Below the pieces are notes generated by a model, which was given only the letters and a program-made list of their open reading frames with translations, was not told where the DNA came from and did not search any database. DNA of 61,373 bases from contig JBJLAY010000040.1 in the NCBI GenBank assembly GCA_045568475.1, positions 1-61,373 of the forward strand, written 5' to 3'. The DNA is from Candidatus Poseidoniaceae archaeon. GTDB taxonomy: Archaea > Thermoplasmatota > Poseidoniia > Poseidoniales > Poseidoniaceae. The translations under genes and the position numbers were made by a program. Below are positions 16,413 through 51,999 of this stretch, in pieces (position 1 is the stretch's first letter; every line of letters begins with the position of its first letter).

Positions 16413-16479
16413 ATATTCTCGCTCCCGCAGCCGGATTATGAACCTGCGTGAGATGGGAACATTCATTCCCTACCCGTTT

Positions 16480-19400: not shown

Positions 19401-21204
19401 TGGAACACAGTGGAATGATACTGATGGCGATGGCTTTGGAGATGAACCTACAGGAACATTAGCTGATGACTGTGTTAGCACTGCTGGAACTTCATGGCAA
19501 AACGGTACGCTTGGTTGTCCAGATGCCGATAGTGATGGATGGGCTGACCAAGAAGATAGCTTTGAATCGGACCCAACTCAATGGCACGATGTTGATGGAG
19601 ATGGATATGGAGACAATATTGGAGGGACAAATCCAGATTCCTGCCCAACTGTTTGGGGTAACTCAACCCAAACAGCACTAGGTTGTCCTGATTCTGACGG
19701 TGACGGATGGGCAGATTCTATCGATGCACTGCCTGCCGACGATACTCAATATTCTGACCAAGATGGCGATGGTTATGGAGACAATCCAAACGGAACTGAT
19801 GCTGACGTTTGTCCACAGGTGTTTGGTAACTCTACCATCGATAGACTAGGATGTGTGGATACTGATGGTGACGGAGTTTCTGACCTCAATGATGATTTCC
19901 CATTAGATCCAACAAGAATATTGGATACAGATGGTGACGGGTACGATGACGTTGAAGACGATTGTTTTGATGTGGCAGGAACATCTGTCAATGGCTCATT
20001 GGGCTGCTTCGATGCTGACCAAGATACCTGGGCCGATGCTAACGACTCTTTCCCACTCGATATGACTCAGTGGAATGACACTGACGGTGATGGATACGGA
20101 GATAACCCTCAAGGAATTAATCCAGATTCTTGTCCAACAATTGCTGGAAACAGCACAGCAGACTTATTGGGATGTCTAGACACTGATTTCGACACATGGT
20201 CAGACTCAGGAGATGCATTCCCAACTGATTCATCAGAGTGGGTTGACAATGATTCTGATGGGTTTGGAGACAATATCGACGACTGCCCGACACTAGCAGG
20301 ACTGTCAACAAACGGTAGCATCGGCTGTCTAGATGACGATGGTGATACTTGGTCAAACGACAATGATTTCCTCCCAGATGATTCAACTCAATGGATTGAT
20401 ACAGATGATGATGGATTAGGAGATAACACTCAAGGGACGAATGGAGACGACTGCCCTGCACAAGCAGGTACATCTTCAATTGACAAAGTAGGATGTCCTG
20501 ACAATGATAGAGATGGCTGGTCTAATTCTGGCGATGAATTCCCTGACCACGGGTCACAACACGTTGATACCGATGGCGATGGTTATGGAGACAATAACTC
20601 CCCAGGTGCTGAATTAGCAGACCACTGGCCAGATGATAGCACAAGAAATACTGCAGAAGTGTTACTATCTTGTGACCCTGTAGAATTCGAAATCGATATC
20701 GCATTAGACCCAAGTGTGGAATTTACTTGTACTGTAACTAACATGATTCAAAATGACTTGACTGTTAAGGTTGAATGGCGCTCAATGAATGCGATTGATA
20801 CTGGTGTACGCACCCATATTCATGTCATTCCAGGAGGAGGATCTCTAAGTGTTTCATTCTCTGGACAAATTGTCGAAAAAGGAGATATCAATTCTGTTAT
20901 TGAAGCCAGTGAGCCGGGAGCTGTGTCATCTATGGCCTTCACATCAATTCAAATTGAAGCGATTAACTCGGCAGACGGCGATTCATTTGATGATCTACTA
21001 GAACAGGCGCAAGAGGTCCCTCACATCCAAGAAATTGTGGCGGTGACTCTAGCAGTTATTCTGGCACTATTCCTTGCATACAATGCACGCCGCAACAATC
21101 TGAAACAAAAGGCAGAGCGCAGAGAACACATCAATCAGCGCCAATCTGGCAGATATGTGATGGATGAAAATAGCAGATTTGACAGATTACCTCCGAGGAA
21201 TTAG
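16480..21204 (+). CDS. Secreted subtilisin-like (S8) serine protease with 12 Ca-binding repeat modules and a C-terminal TM anchor
   Basis: Signal peptide MTSNMRAVAIVGLLILSSFGSVAA. Catalytic motifs VAVADSGLD (Asp), HGTHVAGS (His), GGTSMACP (Ser). The repeat region is listed separately. C-terminal helix IVAVTLAVILALFLAY followed by a basic tail. Confidence 0.85.
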   Translation: MTSNMRAVAIVGLLILSSFGSVAAWQPAIVEEGDFIGLRNGDVKSIPIGEMQEKSYHGFWMLTHEYPVPSEWIHELADAGVECWSFLPVSSFHCELNGHTASELERLEVEGMAEMPPSAKIHPKVMPAMEGEIKQYMISEGMGFLQITLSGNELPEGIEDRGDVTLIDHSWRWANVAVSPSGVKWLSEQSKVEWIEPNFEFTMDNDVADGIISADVLQSASQMAGIDSSWSALDGTGVVVAVADSGLDNGVNNSGMHPDFRDHILDIKAFPVAPGLQSLVNPPYNDGASDVSGHGTHVAGSVLGDGTESNGVIKGIAPEAQLYMQAVEVYADYTTFAENNYWWAVDGYGLRGIPSDVNQLFDEAAANGSNIHTNSWGSDADGEYTSTSMQTDNASMNHPGMLILTSAGNNGHDGNGDGEVDLDTMGSPATAKNVFTIGASENYRPTISYGHFGTGVDDWGEIWPANYSTAPVGTDHAANNSEGMTAFSSRGPADDTRIKPDIAAPGSFILSTLSRSSSTTGWGTYNSSYVYMGGTSMACPITAGAAALLYQHMYDNLGHTDPSSALIKGIMSATAHDMTGQYGSATNGAGETAPNNHEGHGLLDLDRAVNSTFVDNESVGTGDSLGFRFVVPNSAPDMHVMLSWTDYPSTTVASTNLVNDLDFALKDPSGNWVEYGNNIDNLYGAKISSPAQGTWEVHINGSNVPQGPQKFALVIDANYILTNLSSDQDGDGFQDDNDDCPTVSGSSTNDLSGCPDSDGDGWSNTGDDFPNEVTQWVDSDSDGYGDNPSGSSPDSCVSLSGTSSSDRFGCVDTDSDTWSNPDGLWTIAQGADSCASTWGNSTVDRNGCLDNDGDGQSNLNDVLENDSSQWLDTDGDAFYDNPNPATNWDDCPTVWGNSTIDLQGCLDSDGDGVSNIGDPWPNDPTRSVDTDGDGFSDNEDDCPNFAGNSTWILQGCLDADGDGRTVEYDLFPADGTQWNDTDGDGFGDEPTGTLADDCVSTAGTSWQNGTLGCPDADSDGWADQEDSFESDPTQWHDVDGDGYGDNIGGTNPDSCPTVWGNSTQTALGCPDSDGDGWADSIDALPADDTQYSDQDGDGYGDNPNGTDADVCPQVFGNSTIDRLGCVDTDGDGVSDLNDDFPLDPTRILDTDGDGYDDVEDDCFDVAGTSVNGSLGCFDADQDTWADANDSFPLDMTQWNDTDGDGYGDNPQGINPDSCPTIAGNSTADLLGCLDTDFDTWSDSGDAFPTDSSEWVDNDSDGFGDNIDDCPTLAGLSTNGSIGCLDDDGDTWSNDNDFLPDDSTQWIDTDDDGLGDNTQGTNGDDCPAQAGTSSIDKVGCPDNDRDGWSNSGDEFPDHGSQHVDTDGDGYGDNNSPGAELADHWPDDSTRNTAEVLLSCDPVEFEIDIALDPSVEFTCTVTNMIQNDLTVKVEWRSMNAIDTGVRTHIHVIPGGGSLSVSFSGQIVEKGDINSVIEASEPGAVSSMAFTSIQIEAINSADGDSFDDLLEQAQEVPHIQEIVAVTLAVILALFLAYNARRNNLKQKAERREHINQRQSGRYVMDENSRFDRLPPRN
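18658..20596 (+). repeat. 12 tandem, in-frame, ~55-aa Asp-rich modules (thrombospondin type 3-like DxDxDGxxDxxD Ca-binding motifs with paired Cys)
   Basis: I counted 12 occurrences of the x-G-C-x-D-x-D-x-D-(G/T)-W core (LSGCPDSDGDGW, RFGCVDTDSDTW, RNGCLDNDGDGQ ... KVGCPDNDRDGW). Each is followed by FP.D..QW.D.D.DG.GDN. The copies are diverged at the DNA level. Confidence 0.8.
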
Positions 21205-21247: not shown

Positions 21248-21319
21248 GCGGATATGGTGAAGTGGTTATCACCTGAGGTTTCCAACCTCATGTCGTGGGT
21301 TCGATTCCCGCTATCCGCA
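21248..21319 (+). tRNA. tRNA-Gly (anticodon UCC)
   Basis: Manual cloverleaf. Acceptor GCGGATA/TATCCGC. D arm GTGA-AGTGGTTA-TCAC. Anticodon arm TGAGG-TTTCCAA-CCTCA (anticodon TCC). 4-nt variable loop. T arm GTGGG-TTCGATT-CCCGC. Discriminator A. CCA is not encoded. 72 nt. Confidence 0.9.
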
Positions 21320-23501: not shown

Positions 23502-24191
23502 TCAAACATTATTTCTGGTTGTTTTACATCCAACCGAAAAGTTGGGATTATCTTTCATTGCTTCTAAAGTAGCATCTAAGAGGTCATCTTCGGCAGACCT
23601 TGGATTATCTCCGGCCTGCCTCCATGCAACTGAAACCATTAATTCATCATGGATGAAAGACACTACCTGATGTTCTCCTATTGAGATATCTCTAGGATTC
23701 AGATGCATGCCTTTTTTCTCTGCTTTTTGTACTGCTTCTTTGGCAGTCCAGATTCTAATCGCTTGATCTGAATTAGATTTCAACCAATCTAATTCTTCAC
23801 CTTTAGCCATCATGTCAAATGCATTTTCTTGAATGCCTCTATCGCTAGGCTCACCATCAATTCCAACCCAATATCCTGGCTCAATTAATGCACAAACCGC
23901 CCATTCCCCAGAATGCCCGATACTGATATCTGGCAGAGGTTCATTTTTCCAAACACCATCTAGCCACGATAGATATGGAGCCCTCTCTTCAGTTCGTAAC
24001 ACTTCGATTGAATCGATAGGAATATTCCATGTTTTGAGACATTCCTCCAATAGTAGGCGTCCAGAATTATGGTCTGCTATTCGCTTATCTGTTGCACGAG
24101 GAATCTCTTCGGCTAGAGTGCTCGAACACTCTTCTATTCTCTTACGCGCAATTAGCATGCGTGGACCCTTTGGAGGATCCATAATTTCCAC
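23502..24191 (-). CDS. Sfp/PfaE-type 4'-phosphopantetheinyl transferase
   Basis: PPTase core motifs WVGIDGEP (G-I-D-x-E) and IWTAKEAVQKAEKKG (W-x-x-KEA-x-x-K). It starts 4 nt after the megasynthase stop (GTG 24191, or ATG 24182 preceded by AGGTGG). Confidence 0.8.
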   Translation of the reverse strand: MEIMDPPKGPRMLIARKRIEECSSTLAEEIPRATDKRIADHNSGRLLLEECLKTWNIPIDSIEVLRTEERAPYLSWLDGVWKNEPLPDISIGHSGEWAVCALIEPGYWVGIDGEPSDRGIQENAFDMMAKGEELDWLKSNSDQAIRIWTAKEAVQKAEKKGMHLNPRDISIGEHQVVSFIHDELMVSVAWRQAGDNPRSAEDDLLDATLEAMKDNPNFSVGCKTTRNNV

Positions 24192-24195
24192 CTAA

Positions 24196-27100
24196 TCACC
24201 TCTCAAGAGTGAATCTTTGATCCTCTGCTACTTCGCCCATGGCCTTGAGGCGTAATCCCTTGAGAGAGATTACTGGGGCATCATCATCGCCGACTATTAC
24301 TACATCATGTACAGTTACTCCTGCATCTTCTGTAGCTTGTTTGATTGAACGAACACGTAATTTCTCATCTGCTTCAGGAACTCGTAGCATTGTAGACCAC
24401 TCGATTCCAATAGGTAGGCTAGAGAATCCTTCACTTTCCATTGCAGCCAGTCCGGCATTTTGGAATCCTGCCTCAATCAGCATAGGTAATGCATCAAGGA
24501 GGACTTCTTCTCCTTCTGATTCCAAAGCGAATTGGTCTGTTGCTGGTAATTGATGACGCATCAGGGCGATTCCATCTACACCATTCTCAACTCCTCGCAA
24601 TACTCCTCCATGGGATTGGAACCTAGGGCCGTGGAAGTATCTTAGATAGATGAAACTTGAATGATGCATTAATTCGCCATCTGCAGGTGTACCAATTGCT
24701 GGTAGTGCTTCGATTTCAGATTGCAAGAAAGTGCTCAAGTCATCGCTTGAGGCAACTAGTCTAACCTTTGCTTGATGATGCAATCTTGGCTCACCGAATA
24801 TTTCTCCCTTCGAGTTTACCAAATCTGAAACTAATCGGCAATTCACCCACGATAAATCTCCATTGGTCTTTTCCAAATTTGCTTCAACTCTAACCGTCAT
24901 CGCACCTTTCATTATCTTGACAGGAAGGCCGAATGAAACTTCTTCGAAACCAGCAATACAGTGTCCGGGCATCAACAGCAATGAGTTCTCAGCAAACATT
25001 TCCATAGCCATTACACCGGGATGATAAGGCACTCCATCGATTGCATGGTCAACCAAGAATGGGTGGTCTTGAACCGAAAGAGTACATTGAGAGACCAATG
25101 ATTTGCCTTCATCTAGTGATACTAACTTGTCGATTAATGGGAATCTGCGAGGATCTGCAATTGATGCTGCCATTTCTGCGGGAAGTTTTAGTGGGGCTTC
25201 TCTAAAGGAATCGTATCTATCCATCAGACCTAATGAGCCACATCCAAGAACTCTTCTTTTGCCACCAGCAAGCGCTTCTCCAACGAATATCTCAACTCCG
25301 TCTTCAACAGATAATGTTTCAATTCCAGCAGACTCGAAGACTGCTTCGATAGAACCTCTTGTAGCCATTCCAACATCTCGCCATCCTGTCCATCCAATAG
25401 CTACTGCTCTGCAATCTCCTGTTGCAGTCAGTCTGGCCATCTCTGCGTCTAGGATTGAATTGGCTGCTGCGTAATCGGTTTGACCACCGTTTCCAAATCT
25501 TCCAGCAACGCTGGTAAAGGCACAGGCGAATCTCAAAGAATCGCCTGCTACTGAATAGAGAGACTTCCAACCATCGACCTTGACTCGAACTATCAAATCG
25601 AATGTGCTCCATTCTTTGTCAGCGACTAATTTGGACTCTTCAAGTCCAGCACCATGAACGATACCAGTCACGCTTCTTCCGTTGACTGCGGCGCTAATAC
25701 TAGTTGAATCGGTTACATTTGCCGAATGATATTCTGCTTGATTACCACCGTTTTCAATCTCCTTAATTGTACGATAAATATCCATGCTGCGAGTTAGTTT
25801 AGTCCAGGCATTATTCCATTCAACCATCGTTACTTTGCCGGTCTCAGATTCTGCGATTAGGGATTCTCTAAGTTCCATCTTTCGAGTATTGAGTTGCTCA
25901 TCACTCCAATCTAACCACGATGCAGTCTCTTCAGCGAGTTTGCTTCTGCCCAGCAACAAGAATGTTGCACCTGCATCTTTGCTTGCATTTGAAACACCGA
26001 TAATGGATGCTGCAGTTACGCCTGATCCTCCACCACTTACCAACCAAATATCATCTGATTGTAGTGGTTTGATGTCATCAACTAGATCTTCTGCAAAACA
26101 GACCATTGTCCATCTTCGTCCGTCTCTGTCAATTCCAATTTCAACATCGCCACCTGAATTAAACATGTCATTATCGATAATCTCAGCTGCTGCTGCTGCA
26201 TCGATTATCAATTCAGGATGCAAATCCAAGGCTCGACATCTGAGGTTTTCACGTTCAAAACCATAGGACTTGGTTACGCCACTTGCCCCGCAGGCTAGCG
26301 CATTGAATCTGTCACCACGGTTACCATGCCTTCCGTCAATGGCTGTCACACTACCAACAATTCCTGCTGAAATAACACCTAATTGAGAATCTAATCCCTT
26401 GAGTAATCCAAACCATGATTGTGCAGCAAGTGCAACTTGGTTCGAAGGCCCTTCAGATTCCCAAGTGCTTCCAGTTAGGGACAAAGGTGCCAGGTGGATT
26501 ATTCCCCCAACTCCATCAATTCTTGAGCATACTTCTGCAATTTGTTCTTCGCTATTTGGATTTGCTCTGAAAGTATGTCCAGATAATTCCTCTTGCTCAG
26601 TGACTGACTTCGCACCGAATTCGAATCCAATTTTAGCAACTGAAAGTCCCTTTTCGGTTAGCCTGGTTGCTAGAGCATCAGCAACTCCCCAACTATCCTG
26701 TGTAATGACAATGGTTCCGCCAATTGGGAGCCCTTCTGCCACAGCAGGACAGGGTTCTACCTCAACTTGCCATCTTCTGGTGGATGTTTTTGCAGGACTT
26801 GAAGCCGGAGCGACCGGATCCGCAATAGGGGTTGCAACCGCTTGAACAGGTGCAGAAACAGGTTCTGCTGTGACGGTAGTGGATGCACTTCCACCTTTCA
26901 TTTTCTGAATGTATGCTACAAAGTGATTCAATGTTGGATGGTCGGATAGAACGAAGTCCTCATCGACAGGTAGAGAGAAGATTTCTCTAACGTCACCCAT
27001 TATTTCGGCTTGCTTTACTGTATCAATTCCAAGTTCACCTTCTAGGTCTTGATCCATTTCAATAAAGTCATCAGGATAACCTGTGTGCTTTACTACGACT

Positions 27101-30100
27101 CCAATCAATTTTGGTTGAATGTCTCCGCCATCCCCTGATTGGCTAGGTGGTGGGGCGACTGGTGCTGCCTCCACCTGAACTGGAACTGGTTCCACAGGAA
27201 TAGACTCCACTTCTACAGGAACAGATACTACGCCACCCGTCATTTTCTGAATGTATGCTACAAAGTGATTCAATGTTGGATGGTCGGATAGAACGAAGTC
27301 CTCATCGACAGGTAGAGAGAAGATTTCTCTAACGTCCCCCATTATTTCGGCTTGCTTTACGGTATCAATTCCAAGTTCGCCTTCTAGGTCTTGATCCATC
27401 TCAATGAAATCTTCAGGATAACCTGTATGTTTGACTACAACACCGATTAATTTCGGCTGTATATCGCTTACATCTGCTGAATGTGATGATGTCTGAGTCA
27501 CGACTTCAGCAGGAGGTTCTACTACGGCTTCGATTGCTGGCTGAACAGCAGGTGTTGGCGCAGGGGTTGCTGCAGGAGCGGAAACATCCCCTCCTTTCAT
27601 TTTGTGAATATATGCAATCATGTGGTTGAGTGTTGGATAATCGGACAGGATGAAGTCTTCATCGACTGGTAATTCGAACAATGTCCTGATATCAGCCATA
27701 ATCTCTGCTTGCTTGACCGTATCGATTCCCAATTCTCCTTCTAAATCTTGGTCTAATTCTACGAAGTCTGCTGGATATCCTGTGTGGTTTACTACTACTT
27801 CAATTACAGCAGGAGTAATGTCACCGACTACAGCGACTGCAGCGACTGCGGCAGGTTTCACAACTACTGGTTCTGCGACAGGTTCTGGTTCTGCAGCCGG
27901 CTTGGGCACAGTTTCTGCAACAACTGGAACTACAGGAGGTGCTGTGGCTTTGGCTACAGCGTACTCTTCTCCTTGAATACCGCCATGTAGATTGTTGTCG
28001 CCATCAACATAGGCAACTAACTTATTTTGTAGAACTCTAAGTTCGACATTTGATGTACCTGCAATAGATTGGTTCCAAGTTAGCAACTTCTGTCTATCGA
28101 TTCTGTCACCAATATAATCGTACTTTCGAACTAATGAAAGTCCGATTTGGCTACCAAATCCTGCTGCAAATCTCATTCCATATTTCAGATTGGAATAATT
28201 TCCACCTTTAGATAAAGTCAGGTTTCCAAGTTCTGGATCTACTTCCTTATGGTTTGCAATAGGAGGAATCCTTCCCGTCATTAATCCATAGAACATCGAT
28301 GCATCTTCGATTCCAACACCCATTGGATGTCCCGTGAAACCTTTGGTATTGGCAATAACAATTGAATCTGTACTTGCACCAAAGGTATCTCTCAAGGCCT
28401 TGACTTCGGCTTGGGCAGAACCGCCTCTTGCAGGAGTAAATGTTTCGTGAGAGAAGAATGCCATATCGGGAGCCATTGTATGTCGATCCAATCCCCATCT
28501 TTCTTCCATTTCTCTGATGAAGGTATCAACGGTTGAAGCAACGTGTTCAACATCTAATCTTGTTCCATGGAAAGCGGAGTTTGCAATCTTAGTTCCAAGA
28601 AGTTCAGCCATCGGTTGAACGCCTCTTTCATCAGCCTGAGATTTTCTCTCGACAACGAATGCTGCAGCTCCCATTCCCAGAATTAGTCCGTTCCTGCGAC
28701 GATCGAATGGCAGTGCTGTTTCTTCGACAACATTGCTTGTAGCTGCTGCGCCGCTTGCTGCGAAACCAGAACCAATCCATTCCCACAAATCGTCACCAGT
28801 AACATCGTCTGCAGATATAATCACCACGCGGTCACAACGGTCAGCAGCAAGCCAATCTTCAGCGACACCGAATGCTGATGTGGCTGAAGCACAAGCCAGA
28901 TTGATAGTAGTATTAGGGCCTCTGATTCCGACATGTTGTGCGAATTGTGAATGACCCATATTCAAAATCTGGAACAGATATCGACGGTCAAATCTTCCTT
29001 CCCCGTCGTCTCCGTTAACCTTAGCGTGGCGAGCAGCCATTTGATGCCCTGCGAAACATGATGCGAAAACAATACCTGTTCTATCTCTGTAAGAAGATGG
29101 CATCTGCCATGAACGAATAAGTCGTAGTCCACCTTTTCCTACCTGTTCAACAGGGCTTAGCGGAATACCTGCGTCTTTGAGAGCGATTAATCCTGCTGCA
29201 CATGCTAGTTGAGTTGCGATATCCCATGCGGCTGCGATTTTAGCATCGATTCCAAACTCTTCTGATGGATCAAATGCGGACTTAATTCCTGCTAGTTGAG
29301 GTATGTCTCCGAATTCAGTAGCAGCCTCCATCCCTACACTGCCGTCTCTTCCTTTGATTAGTCGAACTATGTTCTTGTCAAGCAATCTCTGCTTGTAGTC
29401 ATCAGTAACTTCACTGATACAGGTTTCTCCTCTGACTAACTTCTCGAAATTGCCTTCATCGAATACACGCTCGCCACCAGGCAATCCAAGAGAAATACCA
29501 GTGATTACGAATGGATCATCATCCCTATCGTCAAATTTGGTTGAACGGTTTTTACTTCCGATTGAAGGGGCTGCTGTTATCCATCTTGTGATATCAGCAG
29601 GTGTTTTTGCAACTGTAATATCCCAATCAGGGTCTGTACTGCATCTTGCATGTACGGATGAAACTACTACTTGGATTTGAGAATCATCCATACCAAGAAC
29701 AGCCCTCATGTCGACATTTCCTTGACAGAATTTAGCAGGATAACCGGATTGTACTGCGATTAATTCTCCAACTAATGCAATCTTAGCCGCATCTGGATCT
29801 ACATATTTTTGACTAGATTGAACTACAGTCTTTGTGACTGTCTCTCCTCCCTTAGATGGTAAAGGTCTACTTCTGTCTTTGAGAGGAGTTGTAGGTGCTA
29901 CTACTCCATTATCTGCTTCGATTGGGCCTGCTTTGAACGCCTCTGTAAGATGAGGACTATTACGTCCTGGCCAATCAGGAATACGACCTGCAAGGGCGAG
30001 GGTTCCAAGGGCTGAGAGGAACGTTGAGATTCCTCCGGCCTTTGGATGATTTGTCATAATCGGCAGGGCTGCCTTTCCTTCTAGGATTTGTGAGGCGAAT

Positions 30101-32847
30101 ACTGTTAGAGCCCTCTTAGGCCCAACTTCGACGAATATCCTTGCGCCTGCTTCATACATCGTATTGATTTGAGTTGTCCACTCAACACTAGATGCCATTT
30201 GAGGGGCTAGCTTTGACAACACTGCTGATTTAGAATCACTGCCATCATCCATTGGATACCAGCCACCATCGACATTGCTTGTTATTGGAATAGTAGGCCA
30301 ACGGATATCCAATCCTTCGAGGAACCTGCGTAGCGGCTCGTTAGCGGGAGCCACTATTCTGGAATGGAATGCATGACTAGTTGCTAATGCCACAGACTGG
30401 AATCCTTCTGCCTCAAACCTTGACATCGCTTCCTTGACGGGCGCTGTTTCGCCAGCGATGACTGTCATCTTTGGAGAGTTCTTGTTTGCTGCAATTACAT
30501 ATCCATCAATCTCATCTATGATTTCTGCAATTCTCTCATAAGGAGCGGTTACACTTGCCATCAGTCCTTTATCTTCGATTTCAACACTGCCCATTTCGGT
30601 ACCACGGGCTGCTGCTGCTCTAAGTGCTCCATCCATGTCAAGAATACCGGCACTCATCAAAGCAGCGTATTCTCCAAGACTGTGTCCAGCGACCATGTCA
30701 GGGTTATGCCCATGAGAATTCAAGGCTGCTTCTATTGCTAAATCGGATGTAAGCATTGCAGGCTGAGTATATTCGGTCTGCTTGAGTTTGTACTCTGCTT
30801 CTTTTCTTTCTTCAGCAGATAGGTTTTCTCGAAGTACGAACGATGAGAGAGTCTCTCCTTCCAAAACATCTACCATTGTGACATCTGCTTTTTCCCACAC
30901 CTTTCCTACACCAGAATAACGGTTACTCAAGTCCAAGGTCATACCAACATATTGGCTTCCTTGTCCGGGATACATATGAGCGACTTTAGCATTAGTTGGA
31001 AGAGCAGGGTCGTCACTGATCATGACTCCTTGACTCATCAAGAATCCCCATTTTTCTTTATCATCCATTGCCTTTACAGCCAAATCGGTTCGCTTACTCA
31101 ATTCAGCCCAACTTGTAGCAGTAATAGCCATCCTAACCGAGTCACTTTCTGAATATGACCAGTGGTCCTGGAGAGTAAAGGATAGCCTCATCCCCCTGGG
31201 GTCATCATCGAAGTTTGGACCACTAAACGCTATTGAACTCAATTTAGACTTCACTGTAGCGATAGAATCTCCCGAAAGTAATAGCAATCCTCCTTCAACA
31301 GATTTCAATTCATCATGAGTCATTGTAGGCTTTGAATCTGAGACTTCTATGCCAGCATATGCTTCCCATCTGCCGTCCCAATGTGAAACCAATTCAGAAT
31401 GGTACTGCTGTTTGTATTCTTCAATTGCTACGTGGAAGTTCGTTCCACCAAAACCGAAGGCAGAGACTCCTGCTCGACGAGGATGTGACTCCGGTTCTGG
31501 CCAATCTCTCGCTTCGGTTGGAACGAAGAACGGAATCTCACCCCATTCCACAGTAGGGTTTGGAGTTTGGAAACCTGCACTTGGAGGGATTGTGTTGTGG
31601 TATACAGAATTACATGCTTTCATGATTCCAGCAATACCTGCAGCCGCTTTCAGATGCCCAATTTGGCTTTTTACTGAACCTACTGCGATGTGATCGCCAC
31701 CATCAAGTCCTTTCCAAAGTAAAGAAAGAGTAGACAACTCAGTAGCATCTCCTACCTTGGTTGATGTACCGTGTGCTTCAACTAACTCTACAGTTGAAGG
31801 AGCATATCCTGCTTGCGAATAAGCACGGCTAACCGCTTGGACTTGTCCTCTTTGACTTGGAGCTGTAATTCCTTTACCTCTCCCATCTGATGAACCTCCG
31901 ACTCCACGAACTACCGCTTTGACATCATCTCCATCACGAATTGCATCTGAAAGTCTCTTGAGTAGCAATACCCCTGCGCCTTCACCCATTACGAATCCGT
32001 TTGCACGTGCATCGAAAGGCGTTGAGTGAGTTGCAGAAAGGGCGCCTATTGCACTGAATTTAGCGAAGGTTGGAGCTTCCATGCAACGGTCTGTAGCACC
32101 AGCCAACATGGTATCGACTTGTCTTGTCTGTAGTAATCTGCAAGCATCCAGTAATGCCGCCATTGAGGATGCGCATGCTGCATCTGTCGAATAATTTGGA
32201 CCTTGAAGGTCAAGTAAATTCGCAACTCGGCCACTCACTACATTCGCAAGCTCACCCGGCATTGTATCTTCATCGATTCTTGGTTTACCTTCACAGACTT
32301 TCTCAACCATGGCATCTGCCTGTTCTGGAGTTGCTCCATTATCAATTGCAATCTTGCGCATCTCTGCACTGAATACTCGTAAATTGGATTCAGAGCGGTT
32401 TTCTCCTCCAAGAGCGTTAGCAAAAATTACTCCTGTTCTTGCACGATCAAGTGTTTTACCGTCTTCACCATACCCTGCATTCTCAATTGCGTCAGCAGAT
32501 ACCGTAACTGCCCAAAGTTGGCATGGATCGATTTGAGGTAGCGTCCCGGGAGGTTGCCTCCACCTTCTCCAATCAAATTCGTAACCTTCAACAAATCCAC
32601 CGATTTTAGAATATGTTTTACCTTCTGTGACATTCCCTGGTGCGCCATTTTCCCAGTAAATATCAGGGTCCCATCTGCTTTTGTCAACCTCTTTTATCGA
32701 AACATGAGCGTCGATAATGTTCTGCCAGAATTCATCGATGCTTTTTGCATCCGGCATTAGAGCGGCCATGCCGATAATTGCAATCGGTTCAAATGGCGCC
32801 TGATTTAGGCCGTCGACCGGTTTTCCATTGGCAGTGGTGATTGTCAT
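24196..32847 (-). CDS. Type I FAS/PKS megasynthase, PfaA-like: KS - AT - carrier-like - KS - ACP x3 - KR - DH (2883 aa)
   Basis: KS1 (aa ~20-475): DAACASS, EAHGTST, KSQIGH. AT (aa ~620-920): GHSLGEY, AFHS. Degenerate carrier-like segment (aa ~1015-1090). KS2 (aa ~1110-1575): NLACASA, AFHGT, GFTGH. ACPs (aa ~1675-1986): 3x GYP.DF...DQDLEGELGIDTVKQAEIM. KR (aa ~2030-2500): SGGGSGV, DYAAAN. DH (aa ~2565-2870): HAIDGVPYHP. Approximate nt ranges: KS1 31423-32790, AT 30088-30990, KS2 28123-29520, ACPs 26890-27825, KR 25348-26760, DH 24238-25155. Confidence 0.9.
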   Translation of the reverse strand: MTITTANGKPVDGLNQAPFEPIAIIGMAALMPDAKSIDEFWQNIIDAHVSIKEVDKSRWDPDIYWENGAPGNVTEGKTYSKIGGFVEGYEFDWRRWRQPPGTLPQIDPCQLWAVTVSADAIENAGYGEDGKTLDRARTGVIFANALGGENRSESNLRVFSAEMRKIAIDNGATPEQADAMVEKVCEGKPRIDEDTMPGELANVVSGRVANLLDLQGPNYSTDAACASSMAALLDACRLLQTRQVDTMLAGATDRCMEAPTFAKFSAIGALSATHSTPFDARANGFVMGEGAGVLLLKRLSDAIRDGDDVKAVVRGVGGSSDGRGKGITAPSQRGQVQAVSRAYSQAGYAPSTVELVEAHGTSTKVGDATELSTLSLLWKGLDGGDHIAVGSVKSQIGHLKAAAGIAGIMKACNSVYHNTIPPSAGFQTPNPTVEWGEIPFFVPTEARDWPEPESHPRRAGVSAFGFGGTNFHVAIEEYKQQYHSELVSHWDGRWEAYAGIEVSDSKPTMTHDELKSVEGGLLLLSGDSIATVKSKLSSIAFSGPNFDDDPRGMRLSFTLQDHWSYSESDSVRMAITATSWAELSKRTDLAVKAMDDKEKWGFLMSQGVMISDDPALPTNAKVAHMYPGQGSQYVGMTLDLSNRYSGVGKVWEKADVTMVDVLEGETLSSFVLRENLSAEERKEAEYKLKQTEYTQPAMLTSDLAIEAALNSHGHNPDMVAGHSLGEYAALMSAGILDMDGALRAAAARGTEMGSVEIEDKGLMASVTAPYERIAEIIDEIDGYVIAANKNSPKMTVIAGETAPVKEAMSRFEAEGFQSVALATSHAFHSRIVAPANEPLRRFLEGLDIRWPTIPITSNVDGGWYPMDDGSDSKSAVLSKLAPQMASSVEWTTQINTMYEAGARIFVEVGPKRALTVFASQILEGKAALPIMTNHPKAGGISTFLSALGTLALAGRIPDWPGRNSPHLTEAFKAGPIEADNGVVAPTTPLKDRSRPLPSKGGETVTKTVVQSSQKYVDPDAAKIALVGELIAVQSGYPAKFCQGNVDMRAVLGMDDSQIQVVVSSVHARCSTDPDWDITVAKTPADITRWITAAPSIGSKNRSTKFDDRDDDPFVITGISLGLPGGERVFDEGNFEKLVRGETCISEVTDDYKQRLLDKNIVRLIKGRDGSVGMEAATEFGDIPQLAGIKSAFDPSEEFGIDAKIAAAWDIATQLACAAGLIALKDAGIPLSPVEQVGKGGLRLIRSWQMPSSYRDRTGIVFASCFAGHQMAARHAKVNGDDGEGRFDRRYLFQILNMGHSQFAQHVGIRGPNTTINLACASATSAFGVAEDWLAADRCDRVVIISADDVTGDDLWEWIGSGFAASGAAATSNVVEETALPFDRRRNGLILGMGAAAFVVERKSQADERGVQPMAELLGTKIANSAFHGTRLDVEHVASTVDTFIREMEERWGLDRHTMAPDMAFFSHETFTPARGGSAQAEVKALRDTFGASTDSIVIANTKGFTGHPMGVGIEDASMFYGLMTGRIPPIANHKEVDPELGNLTLSKGGNYSNLKYGMRFAAGFGSQIGLSLVRKYDYIGDRIDRQKLLTWNQSIAGTSNVELRVLQNKLVAYVDGDNNLHGGIQGEEYAVAKATAPPVVPVVAETVPKPAAEPEPVAEPVVVKPAAVAAVAVVGDITPAVIEVVVNHTGYPADFVELDQDLEGELGIDTVKQAEIMADIRTLFELPVDEDFILSDYPTLNHMIAYIHKMKGGDVSAPAATPAPTPAVQPAIEAVVEPPAEVVTQTSSHSADVSDIQPKLIGVVVKHTGYPEDFIEMDQDLEGELGIDTVKQAEIMGDVREIFSLPVDEDFVLSDHPTLNHFVAYIQKMTGGVVSVPVEVESIPVEPVPVQVEAAPVAPPPSQSGDGGDIQPKLIGVVVKHTGYPDDFIEMDQDLEGELGIDTVKQAEIMGDVREIFSLPVDEDFVLSDHPTLNHFVAYIQKMKGGSASTTVTAEPVSAPVQAVATPIADPVAPASSPAKTSTRRWQVEVEPCPAVAEGLPIGGTIVITQDSWGVADALATRLTEKGLSVAKIGFEFGAKSVTEQEELSGHTFRANPNSEEQIAEVCSRIDGVGGIIHLAPLSLTGSTWESEGPSNQVALAAQSWFGLLKGLDSQLGVISAGIVGSVTAIDGRHGNRGDRFNALACGASGVTKSYGFERENLRCRALDLHPELIIDAAAAAEIIDNDMFNSGGDVEIGIDRDGRRWTMVCFAEDLVDDIKPLQSDDIWLVSGGGSGVTAASIIGVSNASKDAGATFLLLGRSKLAEETASWLDWSDEQLNTRKMELRESLIAESETGKVTMVEWNNAWTKLTRSMDIYRTIKEIENGGNQAEYHSANVTDSTSISAAVNGRSVTGIVHGAGLEESKLVADKEWSTFDLIVRVKVDGWKSLYSVAGDSLRFACAFTSVAGRFGNGGQTDYAAANSILDAEMARLTATGDCRAVAIGWTGWRDVGMATRGSIEAVFESAGIETLSVEDGVEIFVGEALAGGKRRVLGCGSLGLMDRYDSFREAPLKLPAEMAASIADPRRFPLIDKLVSLDEGKSLVSQCTLSVQDHPFLVDHAIDGVPYHPGVMAMEMFAENSLLLMPGHCIAGFEEVSFGLPVKIMKGAMTVRVEANLEKTNGDLSWVNCRLVSDLVNSKGEIFGEPRLHHQAKVRLVASSDDLSTFLQSEIEALPAIGTPADGELMHHSSFIYLRYFHGPRFQSHGGVLRGVENGVDGIALMRHQLPATDQFALESEGEEVLLDALPMLIEAGFQNAGLAAMESEGFSSLPIGIEWSTMLRVPEADEKLRVRSIKQATEDAGVTVHDVVIVGDDDAPVISLKGLRLKAMGEVAEDQRFTLER
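26890..27825 (-). repeat. Three in-frame tandem ACP-domain repeats (periods 357 and 342 nt) separated by Ala/Pro/Val-rich linkers
   Basis: Copies 2 and 3 share a 96-nt perfectly identical block (26899-26994 = 27241-27336), then diverge progressively. Copy 1 is clearly more diverged. Confidence 0.9.
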
Positions 32848-32851
32848 TTCT

Positions 32852-33646
32852 TCACTCCCCCATTATACTCGAAGGAACCATTGTAATCGAATATCCTGCA
32901 TCAACATGGATACACTGTCCTGTAACGCCTGATGAAAGTGGGCTTGCAAGCCAAGTTGTACAGCCTGCAACATCTGACTGTGTTACGTTTCTGCGAAGAG
33001 GTGAATTGTTTGCAACATGATCTAGAATATTGTCAAAGCCGGGGATGCCGCTGGCTGCAATAGTACGAATCGGTCCACTAGAAATCGCATTAACGCGGTG
33101 CCCTTCAGGCCCAAGATGGCAAGCTAATTCTCTAGTCCAGCACTCGAGTGCGGCCTTTGCCATACTCATTATTCCATAGGAAGGGACATGCCTGGTAGAT
33201 GCCGCATAAGTCAGAGTTATTGTTGAAGAGTCCGCATTGAGATATGGCAATGCATATTTCAGACAACGCTGTAATGAATTGGCAGAAATTGTGAATGCAG
33301 TATTGATACTCTCATCTTCAACGAATAAAATAGGTCTGTCGAAACACTCACGTGGGGCGAACCCGATTGCGTGAATTAGAATATCTGCTTTCAGACCAGG
33401 ATTCTCTTTACCGAATGCGTCAAAGAATTCCTTGGTATCTGCATCGGTAGCAACATCTAGCGGGTAGAATCCAGCAATGGCTGGAAGTTTATCCTTTAAT
33501 TGGAATACTCTAGACATGAATCTCTTCTGATATCCGAGGTAAAGTGTCACCCCTGCTTCAGCTAGACTCTTGCAAATCGCCCATGCGATTGAGTCTTCAC
33601 TTGCAACACCGAATACGAATGCAACTTTACCTTGTAAACCAAGCAT
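32852..33646 (-). CDS. fabI: Enoyl-[acyl-carrier-protein] reductase, FabI type (SDR)
   Basis: N-terminus MLGLQGKVAFVFGVASEDSIAWAI (FabI G-x-x-x-x-x-SIA motif) and the Tyr/Lys region YGIMSMAKAALE. The start is taken at ATG 33646; the track GTG at 33655 lies inside a hairpin. The stop lies 4 nt before the megasynthase ATG. Confidence 0.85.
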   Translation of the reverse strand: MLGLQGKVAFVFGVASEDSIAWAICKSLAEAGVTLYLGYQKRFMSRVFQLKDKLPAIAGFYPLDVATDADTKEFFDAFGKENPGLKADILIHAIGFAPRECFDRPILFVEDESINTAFTISANSLQRCLKYALPYLNADSSTITLTYAASTRHVPSYGIMSMAKAALECWTRELACHLGPEGHRVNAISSGPIRTIAASGIPGFDNILDHVANNSPLRRNVTQSDVAGCTTWLASPLSSGVTGQCIHVDAGYSITMVPSSIMGE

Positions 33647-33652
33647 GATTGG

Positions 33653-33673
33653 CACCTACCCTTAGGGTAGGTG
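33653..33673 (-). promoter_or_regulatory. Perfect 9-bp stem / 3-nt loop hairpin covering the Shine-Dalgarno-like AGGUG of fabI
   Basis: Plus strand reads cacctaccc-tta-gggtaggtg. On the mRNA it is CACCUACCC-UAA-GGGUAGGUG-CCAAUC-AUG, so the SD-like element forms the 3' arm of the stem, 6 nt from the AUG. Confidence 0.45.
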
Positions 33674-42968: not shown

Positions 42969-43032
42969 GGGGCTACCCTCTCTCCTCTTCCAGTCCAGTC
43001 TGACATAAAAGACCGACGGGGAAGTGTCTGAG

Positions 43033-43060
43033 CGGGTTCCCCCCTTTAGGGGGGTACCCG
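43033..43060 (-). terminator. GC-clamp hairpin (C6-loop-G6 core) just downstream of the ThiI-like gene
   Basis: Reads cgggttcccccc-ttta-ggggggtacccg: 11 bp with one T-T mismatch. It lies 7 nt past the stop at 43067. No oligo-T follows, so terminator function is only a guess. Confidence 0.3.
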
Positions 43061-43066
43061 GTAATC

Positions 43067-43794: not shown

Positions 43795-44286
43795 TTGAAG
43801 GAGGGGAGTCCATTCCCCTTGAGCATGGAGCCATTCAGTACAGAACCGGTCACACTAATCGAAGAGGTGTTTCCACAGGACACTAACTCATACAATACAT
43901 TGTTTGGAGGACGTTTGCTTTCTTTGATGGACAAGGCGGCGGGAATTGTATGTGCTAAATTCGCTCACCGTGAATTCGTTACTATTTCGATAGATACTCT
44001 TGAATTCAAGGCTCCAGCTCGTCAAGGAGATTTGATAGAGGTCACTGCTAAAATCGTGTATACCTCGAATCGAACCGCTTGTGCTAAAGTTACAGCATGG
44101 GCAATGAATAAATCAGATTGGACTAAAACTGAAATTTGTGAAGGATACTTCTTCATGGTTGCAATCGATTCAATGATGCGCCCAATTCCAATTCCTCAAT
44201 TCAAACCAGAGACAGATGAAGAACATAGTGAATGGGATGCTGCAAAAGCAATCAAAGCACACATGTTATCTCAAAGGAAAAAATGA
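43795..44286 (+). CDS. Acyl-CoA thioesterase (hotdog fold, YciA/Acot-like)
   Basis: EEVFPQDTNSYNTLFGGRLLSLMDKAAGIVCAKFA... is typical of the acyl-CoA hydrolase family. The start is uncertain (TTG 43795 or ATG 43825). Confidence 0.8.
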   Translation: MKEGSPFPLSMEPFSTEPVTLIEEVFPQDTNSYNTLFGGRLLSLMDKAAGIVCAKFAHREFVTISIDTLEFKAPARQGDLIEVTAKIVYTSNRTACAKVTAWAMNKSDWTKTEICEGYFFMVAIDSMMRPIPIPQFKPETDEEHSEWDAAKAIKAHMLSQRKK

Positions 44287-51959: not shown

Positions 51960-51991
51960 AATAAAATAGTCAAAAAATAACAACAAGGCTG

Positions 51992-51999
51992 TTTTTTTT
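51992..51999 (+). terminator. T8 tract 33 nt after the MBL-gene stop (archaeal oligo-T terminator candidate), embedded in an AU hairpin 51994-52015
   Basis: Reads gtttttttta. ttttttag-tgcacc-ctaaaaaa forms an 8-bp inverted repeat. Confidence 0.35.

What the first reader, a model, noticed from the sequence alone, without database searches (positions are those of the whole stretch)
23502..33673. Self-contained enoyl reductase - megasynthase - PPTase operon (type I FAS/PKS, PUFA-synthase-like) inside an archaeal genome
SEEN: three minus-strand genes are separated by 4-nt spacers. The FabI stop TGA is at 32852-32854, followed by AGAA and the megasynthase ATG at 32847. The megasynthase stop is at 24196-24198, and the PPTase starts at GTG 24191 or ATG 24182. 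A convergent gene lies below and a 115-nt gap lies above, so this looks like a discrete operon. Motifs read directly from the 2883-aa product are: KS1 (DAACASS Cys225, EAHGTST His359, KSQIGH His398); AT (GHSLGEY Ser723, AFHS); a degenerate carrier-like segment; KS2 (NLACASA Cys1319, AFHGT His1427, GFTGH His1507); three ACPs; KR (SGGGSGV, DYAAAN); and a polyketide-type DH (HAIDGVPYHP = HxxxGxxxxP). With the FabI-like ER upstream and the Sfp-type PPTase (WVGIDGE, WTAKEAVQKA) downstream, every activity for iterative reducing acyl-chain synthesis plus carrier activation is present. ESTABLISHED: KS-AT-ACPn-KR-DH is the PfaA layout of bacterial and thraustochytrid PUFA synthases. Archaea are generally described as lacking ACP, AcpS/Sfp and type I FAS/PKS. 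INFERENCE: the flanking genes (TFS, Nop5, fibrillarin, PCNA, Orc1/Cdc6, TBP-like, DUF359 DPCK) indicate an archaeal replicon. The operon is therefore either an acquired fatty-acid/secondary-lipid synthase that could feed ester-type lipids, or a new polyketide/polyene pathway. The extra KS and the FabI-type ER distinguish it from canonical pfaABCDE. I cannot tell from sequence alone whether this has already been described.
Basis: partly seen in the sequence, partly recalled or inferred. Interest (0 to 1): 0.92.

Follow-up and report, generated by a model that had tools for sequence, protein, structure and literature searches.

The report
Archaeal fatty-acid-type megasynthase with threonine carriers
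The abundant ocean archaea called Marine Group II carry a conserved three-gene operon for a bacterial-style giant fatty-acid/polyketide synthase, and its carrier domains have a threonine where every characterised carrier protein has the serine that holds the cofactor arm.

Summary
Three minus-strand genes lie 4 nt apart: a FabI-like enoyl reductase (32852-33655), a 2883-aa megasynthase (24196-32847) and an Sfp-type PPTase (23502-24191). The replicon is archaeal and belongs to the Poseidoniales (Marine Group II).

It is not a contaminant. The operon sits in the same neighbourhood in 59-65 of 75 Poseidoniales loci, including an MGIIb contig that also carries PCNA, TFS, Nop5 and fibrillarin.

The megasynthase is not a canonical PUFA synthase. 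It matches the "Type R" PfaA-like secondary-lipid synthase (KS-MAT-"CLF"-ACPn-KR plus PPTase), described in bacteria in 2011 with no known product.

New points:
- The "CLF" is a FabF-like KS with an intact Cys-His-His triad.
- The enoyl reductase is FabI here, whereas the bacterial clusters I examined carry an acyl-CoA-dehydrogenase gene (with ETF genes in two).
- All three carriers read LGIDTVK, with Thr at the phosphopantetheine site. Thr is invariant in 209/209 Poseidoniales carrier copies. Across 265 relatives the site is Thr 707 times, Ser 19 times and nothing else.

Most likely function: iterative synthesis of saturated acyl chains on Thr-linked phosphopantetheine. Release step and product are unknown.

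I found no paper on the archaeal operon or the Thr carriers. Interest 0.75.

The parts
32852..33655 (-). FabI-like enoyl reductase (267 aa), proposed trans-acting ER. Y160-x6-K167.
   Evidence: Pfam adh_short_C2 at 227 bits. The best NCBIfam hits are FabI equivalogs at 216 bits, below their cut-offs. Present next to the megasynthase in 65/75 loci. Y/K motif shown.
24196..32847 (-). 2883-aa megasynthase: KS1-AT-pseudoACP-KS2-ACP(Thr)x3-KR-DH.
   Evidence: Full-length colinear homologues in 75 loci.
31402..32790 (-). KS1 (aa 20-482), PKS/PfaA-type. C225, H359, H398.
   Evidence: Pfam. PDB hits to PKS KS-AT didomains and to the PfaC KS (6riw). Triad conserved in relatives.
30001..30975 (-). Acyltransferase (aa 625-949). 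GHSLGE S723 and HAFH H828, the malonyl-type motif.
   Evidence: Pfam Acyl_transf_1 at 119 bits and FabD-like at 191 bits. Motifs.
29563..29790 (-). Pseudo-ACP (aa ~1020-1095), an ACP-like segment with no conserved attachment residue.
   Evidence: The segment is conserved across Poseidoniales, but the 'site' residue varies among S, D, N, T, P and A. It is found by BLAST in only 17 of 265 relatives.
28048..29520 (-). KS2 (aa ~1110-1600), FabF-like. C1319, H1467, K1502 and H1507 are intact. Not a CLF.
   Evidence: Best PDB hits are FabF (2gqd, 82.7 bits), with the alignment shown. Residues are conserved in 243-260 of 264 relatives.
26893..27825 (-). Three tandem ACP domains, each with LGIDTVK. 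Thr codons: 27718-27720 (ACG), 27361-27363 (ACC) and 27019-27021 (ACA).
   Evidence: Pfam PP-binding x3. Thr aligns with the DS serine of PigH and S. coelicolor ACPs. The AF2 model places T1710 at the first residue of helix II, and the top Foldseek hits are all ACPs at TM 0.7-0.8. Conservation.
25243..26055 (-). Ketoreductase catalytic subdomain (aa ~2265-2535). S2446, Y2459, N2463.
   Evidence: Pfam KR at 73 bits. Residues conserved in 109-113 of 116 relatives.
24223..25140 (-). PKS-type double-hotdog dehydratase (aa 2570-2875). H2601xxxGxxxxP.
   Evidence: Pfam PKS_DH_N and PS-DH. His conserved in 97/97 relatives.
23502..24191 (-). Sfp-type 4'-phosphopantetheinyl transferase (229 aa). H93, D112, E114, K151, E152.
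   Evidence: Pfam ACPS at 39.8 bits. Weak Sfp match, 1qr0. Adjacent in 61/75 loci, with catalytic residues invariant at 35-86% identity and no stops.

Best explanation
This is the Poseidoniales version of the 'Type R' PfaA-like iterative type I fatty-acid/polyketide synthase. It is fixed in the chromosome and inherited vertically within the order.

Proposed mechanism, with each step marked:
1. The operon's own Sfp-type PPTase transfers 4'-phosphopantetheine from CoA onto the side-chain hydroxyl of Thr1710, Thr1829 and Thr1943 of the three tandem carriers (inferred).
2. The malonyl-type AT loads malonyl units (inferred from motifs).
3. Two catalytically intact ketosynthases, the PfaA-type KS1 and the FabF-like KS2, share priming and elongation (division of labour inferred).
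4. KR, the PKS-type DH and the separately encoded FabI-like reductase complete each cycle. The product would be an essentially saturated straight acyl chain. All catalytic residues are shown to be present; activity is inferred.
5. No release domain is encoded. Off-loading is probably by acyl transfer in trans: either the AT acting like a fungal malonyl/palmitoyl transferase, or a separate acyltransferase or thioesterase (speculative).

The most probable role is a bulk or structural lipid acyl chain in an archaeon that otherwise encodes isoprenoid ether-lipid genes. This is an ACP-dependent route to fatty acids in Archaea.
For: Anatomy and catalytic residues.

Genuine archaeal gene:
- 75 Poseidoniales loci at 55-94% identity.
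- PPTase, FabI and five upstream genes are syntenic in 59-65 loci.
- The MGIIb locus L056 carries the operon beside PCNA, TFS, Nop5 and fibrillarin.
- The same order is found on a 3.0-Mb contig.
- The Poseidoniia KS2 clade is monophyletic at 87/100.

Family identity:
- The architecture and downstream PPTase match Type R.
- ~40%-identical relatives come from Acidobacteriota, Elusimicrobia, Chloroflexota and Myxococcota.
- In three of the five bacterial clusters examined an acetyl-CoA carboxylase lies between the synthase and the PPTase, which points to bulk malonyl-CoA demand.

Thr as the attachment site:
- It is positionally homologous to the Ser of solved ACPs.
- Only Thr (707) or Ser (19) ever occupies the site in 265 relatives.
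- Ser/Thr swaps occur between close relatives and within one protein.
- All four Thr codons are used across 209 invariant copies.
- An active-looking PPTase is always adjacent.

CoA and malonyl-CoA supply genes lie in the same window: PPAT-DPCK at 55243-56262 and biotin carboxylase at 47876-49216.
Against: - No biochemical data exist for any member of the family. The product of Type R is unknown.
- Phosphopantetheinylation of Thr has, to my knowledge, never been shown, and the E. coli ACP S36T mutant is reported as unmodifiable (both from memory, not tested here).
- No TE or acyltransferase is in the operon.
- I could not survey whole Poseidoniales genomes for FAS II, PlsX/Y/C or a free ACP.
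- The ER role of FabI rests on adjacency and family membership only, and its score is below the FabI equivalog cut-offs.
- No expression data were available.
- Operon tetranucleotide usage is mildly atypical: L1 0.136 against a mean of 0.114 and sd of 0.013.
Confidence: 0.62

Rival explanations
1. It is the same enzymology, but the product is a specialised lipid rather than membrane or general fatty acids. Candidates include very-long-chain alkyl moieties for glycolipids, wax-type storage lipids, diols or hydrocarbons.
For: Shulse & Allen class Type R among 'secondary lipid' synthases, whose characterised cousins make heterocyst glycolipids and phenolic-lipid alkyl chains. Tandem ACPs are typical of high-flux secondary lipid synthases. 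One bacterial locus has a wax-ester synthase (WS_DGAT) nearby. No phospholipid acyltransferase is in the operon.
Against: The operon is conserved in position across the whole order and beside housekeeping genes. It is linked to ACC in bacteria. No tailoring genes (glycosyltransferase, reductase, type III PKS) are adjacent to the operon.
Confidence: 0.25
2. It is a non-reducing or partly reducing polyketide or polyene pathway. On this reading FabI is unrelated to the synthase.
For: The synthase has no integrated ER. PKS-type DH and PfaA/enediyne-like KS-AT-ACP-KR-DH layouts can make polyenes. The FabI score is below the equivalog cut-offs.
Against: FabI is translationally coupled by a 4-nt spacer and adjacent in 65/75 loci. 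FabI-megasynthase(-PPTase) units recur in two further, differently placed loci, L084 and L085. The bacterial relatives examined carry a different candidate reductase gene (acyl-CoA dehydrogenase, with ETF genes in two) beside the synthase.
Confidence: 0.07
3. The Thr carriers cannot be modified. The protein would then be a relic, or would work without phosphopantetheine, for example on CoA thioesters as in the ACP-independent archaeal pathway.
For: There is no precedent for Thr-linked phosphopantetheine (from memory). An ACP-independent fatty-acid synthase complex has been described in Sulfolobus (bioRxiv 10.1101/2024.07.05.601840).
Against: The ORF is intact at 2883 aa, and every catalytic residue is conserved across hundreds of divergent relatives. 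Only hydroxyl residues are tolerated at the site. Synonymous Thr codons vary. The dedicated PPTase keeps its catalytic residues at 35% identity.
Confidence: 0.05
4. It is a bacterial contaminant fragment or chimeric join in a metagenome assembly.
For: Three public records that carry the gene are labelled bacterial: Salipiger (L042), Rhodobiaceae (L059) and Flavobacteriales (P0170). Tetranucleotide deviation is mild.
Against: Identical gene order is found in about 60 independent assemblies, including megabase contigs (L011 at 1.53 Mb, L081 at 3.0 Mb) and records not labelled as MAGs. GC is 0.452 against 0.443 with no break. Archaeal informational genes lie on both sides.
Confidence: 0.01

Closest known systems
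'Type R' secondary lipid synthase (Shulse & Allen 2011, PMC3098273): Koribacter, Solibacter, Elusimicrobium, Roseiflexus
   Same: A single PfaA-like polypeptide, KS-MAT-second KS-like domain-ACP(3-6)-KR, followed by a PPTase gene. The product is uncharacterised. Relatives from the same phyla hit at ~40% identity and carry the same LG[IV]DTVKQAE carrier signature.
   Different: The host is an archaeon. The reductase gene is FabI-type, whereas the bacterial clusters I examined have an acyl-CoA dehydrogenase gene (with ETF genes in two) and often an ACC gene inside the cluster. The paper calls the second KS a CLF, but here it keeps Cys-His-His. The paper mentions neither archaea nor the Thr carriers.
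PfaA of bacterial/thraustochytrid PUFA synthases (pfaABCDE; TIGR02813)
   Same: KS-AT-tandem ACP-KR-PKS-type DH order. Homologous ACP repeat (KTGY...LGID[ST][IV]K). Dedicated Sfp-type PPTase. Best NCBIfam hit.
   Different: The score is below the family cut-off (920 < 1010). A pseudo-ACP plus a FabF-like KS are inserted between AT and the ACPs. There is no PfaB, no PfaC (KS-CLF-FabA DHs) and no PfaD (FMN ER) in the operon. Carriers are Thr instead of Ser. No isomerising DH is present, so no route to cis-polyenes.
Heterocyst glycolipid synthase HglE/HglC and phenolic-lipid ArsA/ArsD synthases (Types F and P of the same survey)
   Same: PfaA-derived iterative synthases that make saturated or hydroxylated long alkyl chains for structural lipids.
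   Different: They are split differently (HglC is KS-CLF-AT). They sit with tailoring genes or type III PKS genes, and they occur in bacteria only.
ACP-independent archaeal fatty acid synthase complex of Sulfolobus acidocaldarius (bioRxiv 10.1101/2024.07.05.601840)
   Same: Both are proposed routes to fatty acids in Archaea.
   Different: It is unrelated machinery: thiolase/DUF35, SDR and MaoC enzymes acting on CoA esters. [quoted passage not shown] The present operon is the ACP/PPTase-dependent opposite.
Sfp (Bacillus subtilis) group II PPTase, PDB 1QR0/4MRT
   Same: About 230 aa. The H-S-G, G-x-D-x-E and W-x-x-K-E motifs align.
   Different: It is very divergent (E = 0.006). The presumed substrate hydroxyl is on Thr, not Ser.

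Membership tests
Type R PfaA-like secondary lipid synthase | One polypeptide with KS-MAT-(second KS-like 'CLF')-ACP(3-6)-KR | tested here: met
   Pfam and motif map: KS1, AT, KS2, 3 ACP, KR, plus DH. Definition taken.
Type R PfaA-like secondary lipid synthase | PPTase gene immediately downstream | tested here: met
   PPTase lies 4 nt downstream and is adjacent in 61/75 loci.
Type R PfaA-like secondary lipid synthase | Sequence clustering with the reference proteins of Koribacter, Solibacter, Elusimicrobium and Roseiflexus | tested here: inconclusive
   The reference sequences themselves could not be fetched. Same-architecture relatives named from Acidobacteriota, Elusimicrobia and Anaerolineae hit at 38-46% identity and sit in the same KS2 radiation.
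PUFA synthase PfaA (TIGR02813) | Whole-protein score at or above the curated cut-off (1010.1 bits) | tested here: not met
   920.4 bits.
PUFA synthase PfaA (TIGR02813) | Partner genes pfaB, pfaC (KS-CLF-FabA-type DH x2) and pfaD (FMN enoyl reductase) in the cluster | tested here: not met
   No such genes lie among the ORFs of at least 90 aa in the 61-kb window or beside the gene in the syntenic loci.
PUFA synthase PfaA (TIGR02813) | Tandem ACPs with the LGIDSIKRVEIL serine motif | tested here: not met
   LGIDTVKQAEIM in all three. A canonical example, P0104, has LGIDSIKRVEIL x10.
Chain-length factor (KS-beta) for the second KS | Loss of the active-site Cys (typically Gln) and of the catalytic His residues | tested here: not met
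   C1319, H1467, K1502 and H1507 are present and conserved in 243-260 of 264 relatives.
Acyl carrier protein domain (PP-binding, PF00550) | Four-helix ACP fold | tested here: met
   Pfam 71 bits over 3 stretches. AF2 model at pLDDT 65, with Foldseek top hits all ACPs at TM 0.7-0.8.
Acyl carrier protein domain (PP-binding, PF00550) | Conserved Ser at the start of helix II as the phosphopantetheine acceptor | tested here: not met
   Thr at that position. 209/209 copies in Poseidoniales.
Acyl carrier protein domain (PP-binding, PF00550) | Actual phosphopantetheinylation | not testable with these tools
   Needs mass spectrometry of the co-expressed ACP and PPTase.
Sfp-type (group II) PPTase | ACPS domain above the Pfam cut-off, ~230 aa two-lobed size, catalytic Asp/Glu (GxDxE) and W-x-x-K-E | tested here: met
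   PF01648 at 39.8 bits against a cut-off of 25. The N-terminal lobe families are below their cut-offs. Alignment to Sfp. Residues invariant in 61 loci.
FabI enoyl-ACP reductase | adh_short_C2 fold with Tyr-x6-Lys | tested here: met
   227 bits. Y160/K167.
FabI enoyl-ACP reductase | Score above an NCBIfam FabI equivalog cut-off | tested here: not met
   The best is NF005615 at 216 bits against a cut-off of 391. It is FabI-like, not a certified equivalog.
Type I FAS (animal, fungal or CMN-bacterial) | Integrated ER and a TE or MPT release function in the megasynthase | tested here: not met
   There is no ER, TE or second transferase domain in the 2883 aa.

The most novel reading that the evidence does not exclude
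The Thr residues are genuine attachment sites. This operon, and the family it belongs to, would then use O-(4'-phosphopantetheinyl)-threonine, a post-translational modification not known from any carrier protein. At least 232 of the 265 relatives examined have Thr-only carriers. The modification would be installed by a co-inherited, specialised PPTase lineage. In Poseidoniales the Thr-ACP synthase would be the enzymatic basis of de novo, ACP-dependent fatty-acid synthesis in one of the most abundant archaeal groups in the ocean. That would be the missing piece for the 'mixed membrane' hypothesis. Related Ser or mixed versions occur in Heimdallarchaeia.
Probability: 0.5. Interest if true: 0.9.

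Novelty: new variant of a known kind. Interest (0 to 1): 0.75.

Why it matters
Textbooks and recent primary papers state that Archaea lack ACP, ACP synthase and type I/II FAS (quoted). Here a complete ACP/PPTase-dependent reducing synthase is a conserved chromosomal feature of Marine Group II. These archaea are already suspected, on genomic grounds, of making mixed bacterial/archaeal membranes, yet the order-wide genome survey I could read does not mention this synthase. The operon gives that debate a concrete, clonable three-gene target.

Independently, the strictly conserved Thr at the carrier site would, if modified, extend phosphopantetheinylation chemistry. It would also define an orthogonal ACP/PPTase pair useful for engineering. 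The relatives found in Heimdallarchaeia bear on how the eukaryotic lineage came to use fatty-acyl lipids.

Tried and rejected
Searches that failed or found nothing:
- Searching the 5.8-billion-protein set with the full 2883 aa failed. Segments were used instead.
- Ten literature searches were run. None linked MGII/Poseidoniales to PKS, PfaA or phosphopantetheine.
- No held paper contains the carrier motif strings.
- Nothing was found on Thr-linked phosphopantetheine.
- Nothing relevant was found for Asgard plus PKS.
- One search was wasted on loose terms.
- Villanueva 2017 and Herlemann 2009 are not held. I therefore could not see which MGII 'fatty acid genes' were meant.

Hypotheses considered and rejected:
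- The upstream carrier-like segment as a real ACP. Rejected: its site residue is not conserved.
- KS2 as a CLF. Rejected.
- H1427 as a catalytic residue. Rejected.
- A composition break at the operon borders. Only a mild tetranucleotide deviation was found, with no GC step.

Uninformative checks:
- The sigma-70 promoter and terminator scan matched shuffled expectation, and archaeal promoters are not covered.
- The search for origin-type repeats beside Orc1/Cdc6 found only short two-copy repeats.
- The neighbouring ORFs (382 aa, 148 aa, 267 aa) look like surface or membrane proteins with no Pfam match, and were not taken as part of the system.

Full report
**1. Observation**

- PPTase: 23502-24191 (229 aa).
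- Megasynthase: 24196-32847 (2883 aa, no internal stop).
- FabI-like reductase: 32852-33655 (267 aa).

The junctions read ...GAG TGA AGAA ATG... and ...AGG TGA TTAG GTG GAA ATT ATG.... Both spacers are therefore 4 nt, with purine-rich stretches just upstream. A 115-nt gap separates the operon from the next gene upstream. A convergent ORF ends 4 nt from the PPTase stop.

Pfam confirms the following:
- KS plus KS C-terminal extension (aa 20-482).
- AT (625-949).
- A second ketoacyl-synt stretch.
- Three PP-binding domains.
- KR (2358-2491).
- PKS_DH_N and PS-DH (2570-2875).
- ACPS for the PPTase.
- adh_short_C2 (227 bits) for the reductase.

Two corrections:
- Alignment of KS2 to FabF (2gqd) shows the triad is C1319/H1467/H1507, with K1502. 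H1427 is not catalytic.
- The three carriers read LGIDTVK. A threonine (T1710, T1829, T1943) aligns with the phosphopantetheinylated serine of PigH and Streptomyces ACPs.

**2. Host and authenticity**

The window encodes TFS, Nop5, fibrillarin, PCNA, a TBP-like protein, Orc1/Cdc6 and a PPAT-DUF359 (archaeal dephospho-CoA kinase) fusion.

A scan of one genome per GTDB species returned 75 loci with full-length homologues at 55-94% identity. Nearly all are titled Poseidoniales, Poseidoniaceae or Poseidonia, and one is Thalassarchaeaceae.

Counts of syntenic genes in those 75 loci:
- PPTase adjacent in 61.
- FabI adjacent in 65.
- Each of the five upstream genes (382-aa surface protein, TatD, TBP-like, 267-aa, 1973-aa) present in 59-61.
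- The downstream membrane protein present in 55.

The Thalassarchaeaceae contig L056 has ThiI-1973aa-267aa-TBP-like-TatD-FabI-megasynthase-PPTase. It then runs on to a GT2 gene, PCNA, TFS, Nop5, fibrillarin and Fpg. A 49%-identical homologue sits in the same order on a 3.0-Mb contig (L081).

GC content is 0.452 in the operon against 0.443 for the window. Tetranucleotide usage correlates at r = 0.93 with the rest of the window. The L1 distance is about 1.7 sd above same-size segments. That is a mild deviation, not a break.

A chimeric or contaminant origin is therefore excluded. In a neighbour-joining tree of KS2, the window plus four Poseidoniia-type representatives form one clade in 87 of 100 bootstraps. 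This fits a single old acquisition followed by vertical descent.

**3. What kind of synthase**

The best curated family is PfaA (TIGR02813), at 920 bits against a cut-off of 1010. The cluster lacks pfaB, pfaC and pfaD and has no FabA-type dehydratase.

An exhaustive HMMER search with aa 960-2010 found 1009 50%-identity clusters at E <= 1e-30. Most of the best 150 are 2000-4000-aa proteins with the same KS2-ACPn core. A word-indexed search returned ~40%-identical relatives named from:
- Acidobacteriota (Terriglobales, Bryobacteraceae, Holophagales)
- Elusimicrobia
- Anaerolineae
- Myxococcota/Polyangiaceae
- Actinomycetota
- Gammaproteobacteria

This phylum spread and the architecture match the 'Type R' secondary lipid synthase of Shulse & Allen 2011. 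That type is a pfaA homologue with KS-MAT-CLF-ACP(3-6)-KR followed by a PPTase gene. It occurs in Koribacter, Solibacter, Elusimicrobium and Roseiflexus. In Koribacter an ACC gene lies between the two genes. The product is unknown (PMC3098273). That paper mentions neither archaea nor threonine.

Five bacterial contexts that I fetched show the following arrangement:
- An acyl-CoA dehydrogenase gene lies directly upstream in four of the five, and about 2.4 kb upstream in the fifth.
- ETF and an Fe-S oxidoreductase accompany it in two.
- The split or frameshifted megasynthase follows.
- In three, a single-chain or split acetyl-CoA carboxylase comes next.
- A PPTase gene closes the cluster in four of the five; none was called downstream in L078.

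The Poseidoniales operon differs from these. It has a FabI-type reductase gene in place of the acyl-CoA dehydrogenase and no ACC inside the cluster.

FabI-megasynthase units recur in two other contexts:
- L084: an archaeal contig with eIF2-alpha, S27e, L44e and PAC2. A 206-aa ORF with no Pfam hit follows the megasynthase.
- L085: a PPTase follows the megasynthase; the taxon is unknown.

**4. Domain-level findings across the family**

- KS1 keeps C/H/H.
- KS2 keeps C1319, H1467, K1502 and H1507 in 243-260 of 264 relatives. It is a competent FabF-like condensing enzyme, not a chain-length factor as labelled in 2011.
- AT S723 and the HAFH histidine (malonyl-type), KR S/Y/N and the DH HxxxGxxxxP histidine are conserved.
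- The carrier-like segment between AT and KS2 (aa ~1020-1095) is conserved as a domain within Poseidoniales. Its would-be attachment residue varies among S, D, N, T, P and A. I treat it as a pseudo-ACP or structural domain.
- The FabI-like protein has Y160-x6-K167.
- The PPTase aligns weakly to Sfp. It keeps H93, G110, D112, E114, W148, K151, E152 and K156 in all 61 loci, although identity falls to 35%. No stops are present.

**5. The threonine carriers**

- In the 75 Poseidoniales loci, every carrier copy found (209/209) has LGIDTVK.
- All four Thr codons are used: ACG 90, ACA 46, ACC 37, ACT 36. Selection is therefore acting on the amino acid. Serine (TCN) is one transversion away and never appears in these loci.
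- Across 265 relatives, with any residue allowed by the search pattern, the position is Thr 707 times, Ser 19 times and nothing else.
- The Ser cases are informative. P0004 lies inside the Poseidoniia clade and has LGVDSVKQAE with an adjacent PPTase. The archaeal locus L084 has LGIDSIKQAE. Heimdallarchaeia proteins have all-Ser or mixed S/T/S carriers within one chain.
- An AF2 model of ACP1 (pLDDT 65, so only moderate) starts helix II exactly at T1710. It superposes on solved ACPs at TM 0.7-0.8.

The pattern has three parts: only hydroxyl residues are tolerated, Ser and Thr interchange between close relatives, and a dedicated active-looking PPTase is nearly always present. It is what one expects if Thr is the phosphopantetheine acceptor. 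It is not what one expects of a dead carrier.

To my knowledge (memory, not tested) only O-phosphopantetheinyl-serine is known, and E. coli ACP S36T is not modified. So this is an inference that needs mass spectrometry. No held paper mentions the motif or such a modification.

**6. Mechanism proposed**

Shown by sequence: all catalytic residues for condensation (twice), malonyl transfer, ketoreduction, dehydration, enoyl reduction (in trans) and carrier activation are present. The genes are translationally coupled.

Inferred:
1. The PPTase loads phosphopantetheine on the three Thr residues.
2. The AT loads malonyl units.
3. KS1 and KS2 divide priming and elongation.
4. KR, DH and FabI give saturated chains.

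Unknown: chain length, starter unit and release.

No TE or acyltransferase is in the operon. In canonical PUFA synthases a separate acyltransferase, PfaB, is reported to act as the terminal acyltransferase (PMC12895367). No PfaB homologue lies here. Release by the single AT, or by an unlinked enzyme, is speculation. A 4HBT-family thioesterase lies 10 kb away at 43795-44286, but I have no evidence linking it to the operon.

Supply genes for CoA (PPAT-DPCK, 55243-56262) and a biotin carboxylase (47876-49216) are in the window.

**7. Prior knowledge and novelty**

- Villanueva et al. [quoted passage not shown] I could not read it.
- Rinke et al. 2019 analysed 270 MAGs. They discuss G3P dehydrogenase and ether-lipid genes, but neither the text nor the held supplements mention a PKS, ACP or enoyl reductase.
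- Public records auto-annotate the pieces, for example as 'FabI', 'acyltransferase domain-containing protein' or 'phosphopantetheine-binding protein'.

The kind (Type R) is therefore known and uncharacterised. The following appear undescribed in the literature I could search:
- The archaeal, FabI-coupled version and its order-wide conservation.
- The active KS2.
- The Thr carriers.

**8. Verdict**

I rate it a new variant of a known kind, with interest 0.75. The main uncertainty is biochemical: whether Thr is modified, what the product is and how it is released.

Noticed in passing
L083 10001-19705 (GCA_026702845.1, JADCLS010000015.1); proteins P0026, P0103, P0273, P0276: Heimdallarchaeia (Asgard) genomes, including the closed Ca. 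Heimdallarchaeum aukensis and endolithica genomes, encode 2700-3500-aa relatives of this synthase with Ser or mixed Ser/Thr carriers. In L083 the gene lies near an Arf/Ras-family GTPase, a carboxyltransferase, a biotinyl carrier and a FabH-like gene. In the KS2 tree they do not group with the Poseidoniia clade (0/100).
   Followed up: partly
L084 10001-19517: A second archaeal context (eIF2-alpha, ribosomal S27e and L44e, PAC2) carries FabI, a 2704-aa megasynthase and a 206-aa ORF. The carriers are Ser type (LGIDSIKQAE x2). The lineage was not identified.
   Followed up: partly
L076, L078, L079, L080 (bacterial long-read contigs): In four of the five bacterial clusters examined an acyl-CoA dehydrogenase gene lies directly upstream, with ETF alpha/beta and a CCG/Fe-S oxidoreductase in two. 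In three of them a single-chain or split acetyl-CoA carboxylase lies between the synthase and the PPTase. This suggests an ETF-linked enoyl reduction in place of FabI. The megasynthase is split into several called genes in these assemblies, which may be frameshift errors.
   Followed up: partly
window 43795-44286 (+): A 163-aa 4HBT-superfamily thioesterase lies about 10 kb from the operon. It is a possible but unlinked candidate for acyl release.
   Followed up: no
window 47876-49216 (-) and 55243-56262 (-): A biotin carboxylase (446 aa) and a fused phosphopantetheine adenylyltransferase-DUF359 (archaeal dephospho-CoA kinase) protein. These are supply genes for malonyl-CoA and CoA, in the same 61 kb.
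   Followed up: no
window 37149-43070 (-) and 16396-21204 (+): A 1973-aa ORF with no Pfam match is conserved upstream of the operon in 59 loci. A 1602-aa subtilase is present in 31 loci. Both are giant proteins.
   Followed up: no
window 524-3859 (-): A 1111-aa fusion of a B12-binding domain, the MeaB GTPase and methylmalonyl-CoA mutase (IcmF-like).
   Followed up: no
window 60573-61244 (+): A 223-aa protein with several CCHC zinc knuckles (zf-CCHC families). This domain is better known from eukaryotes and retroelements.
   Followed up: no
L042, L059; P0170: Public MAG records titled Salipiger bermudensis, Rhodobiaceae bacterium and Flavobacteriales bacterium carry 66-77%-identical copies of the Poseidoniales gene. 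These are most likely mis-binned archaeal contigs.
   Followed up: no
window 51365-52372: A 1-kb intergenic stretch lies upstream of Orc1/Cdc6 with a local GC dip (0.41). Only short two-copy repeats were found and no clear origin-recognition-box array. A tRNA-Gly(TCC) lies at 21248-21319.
   Followed up: partly
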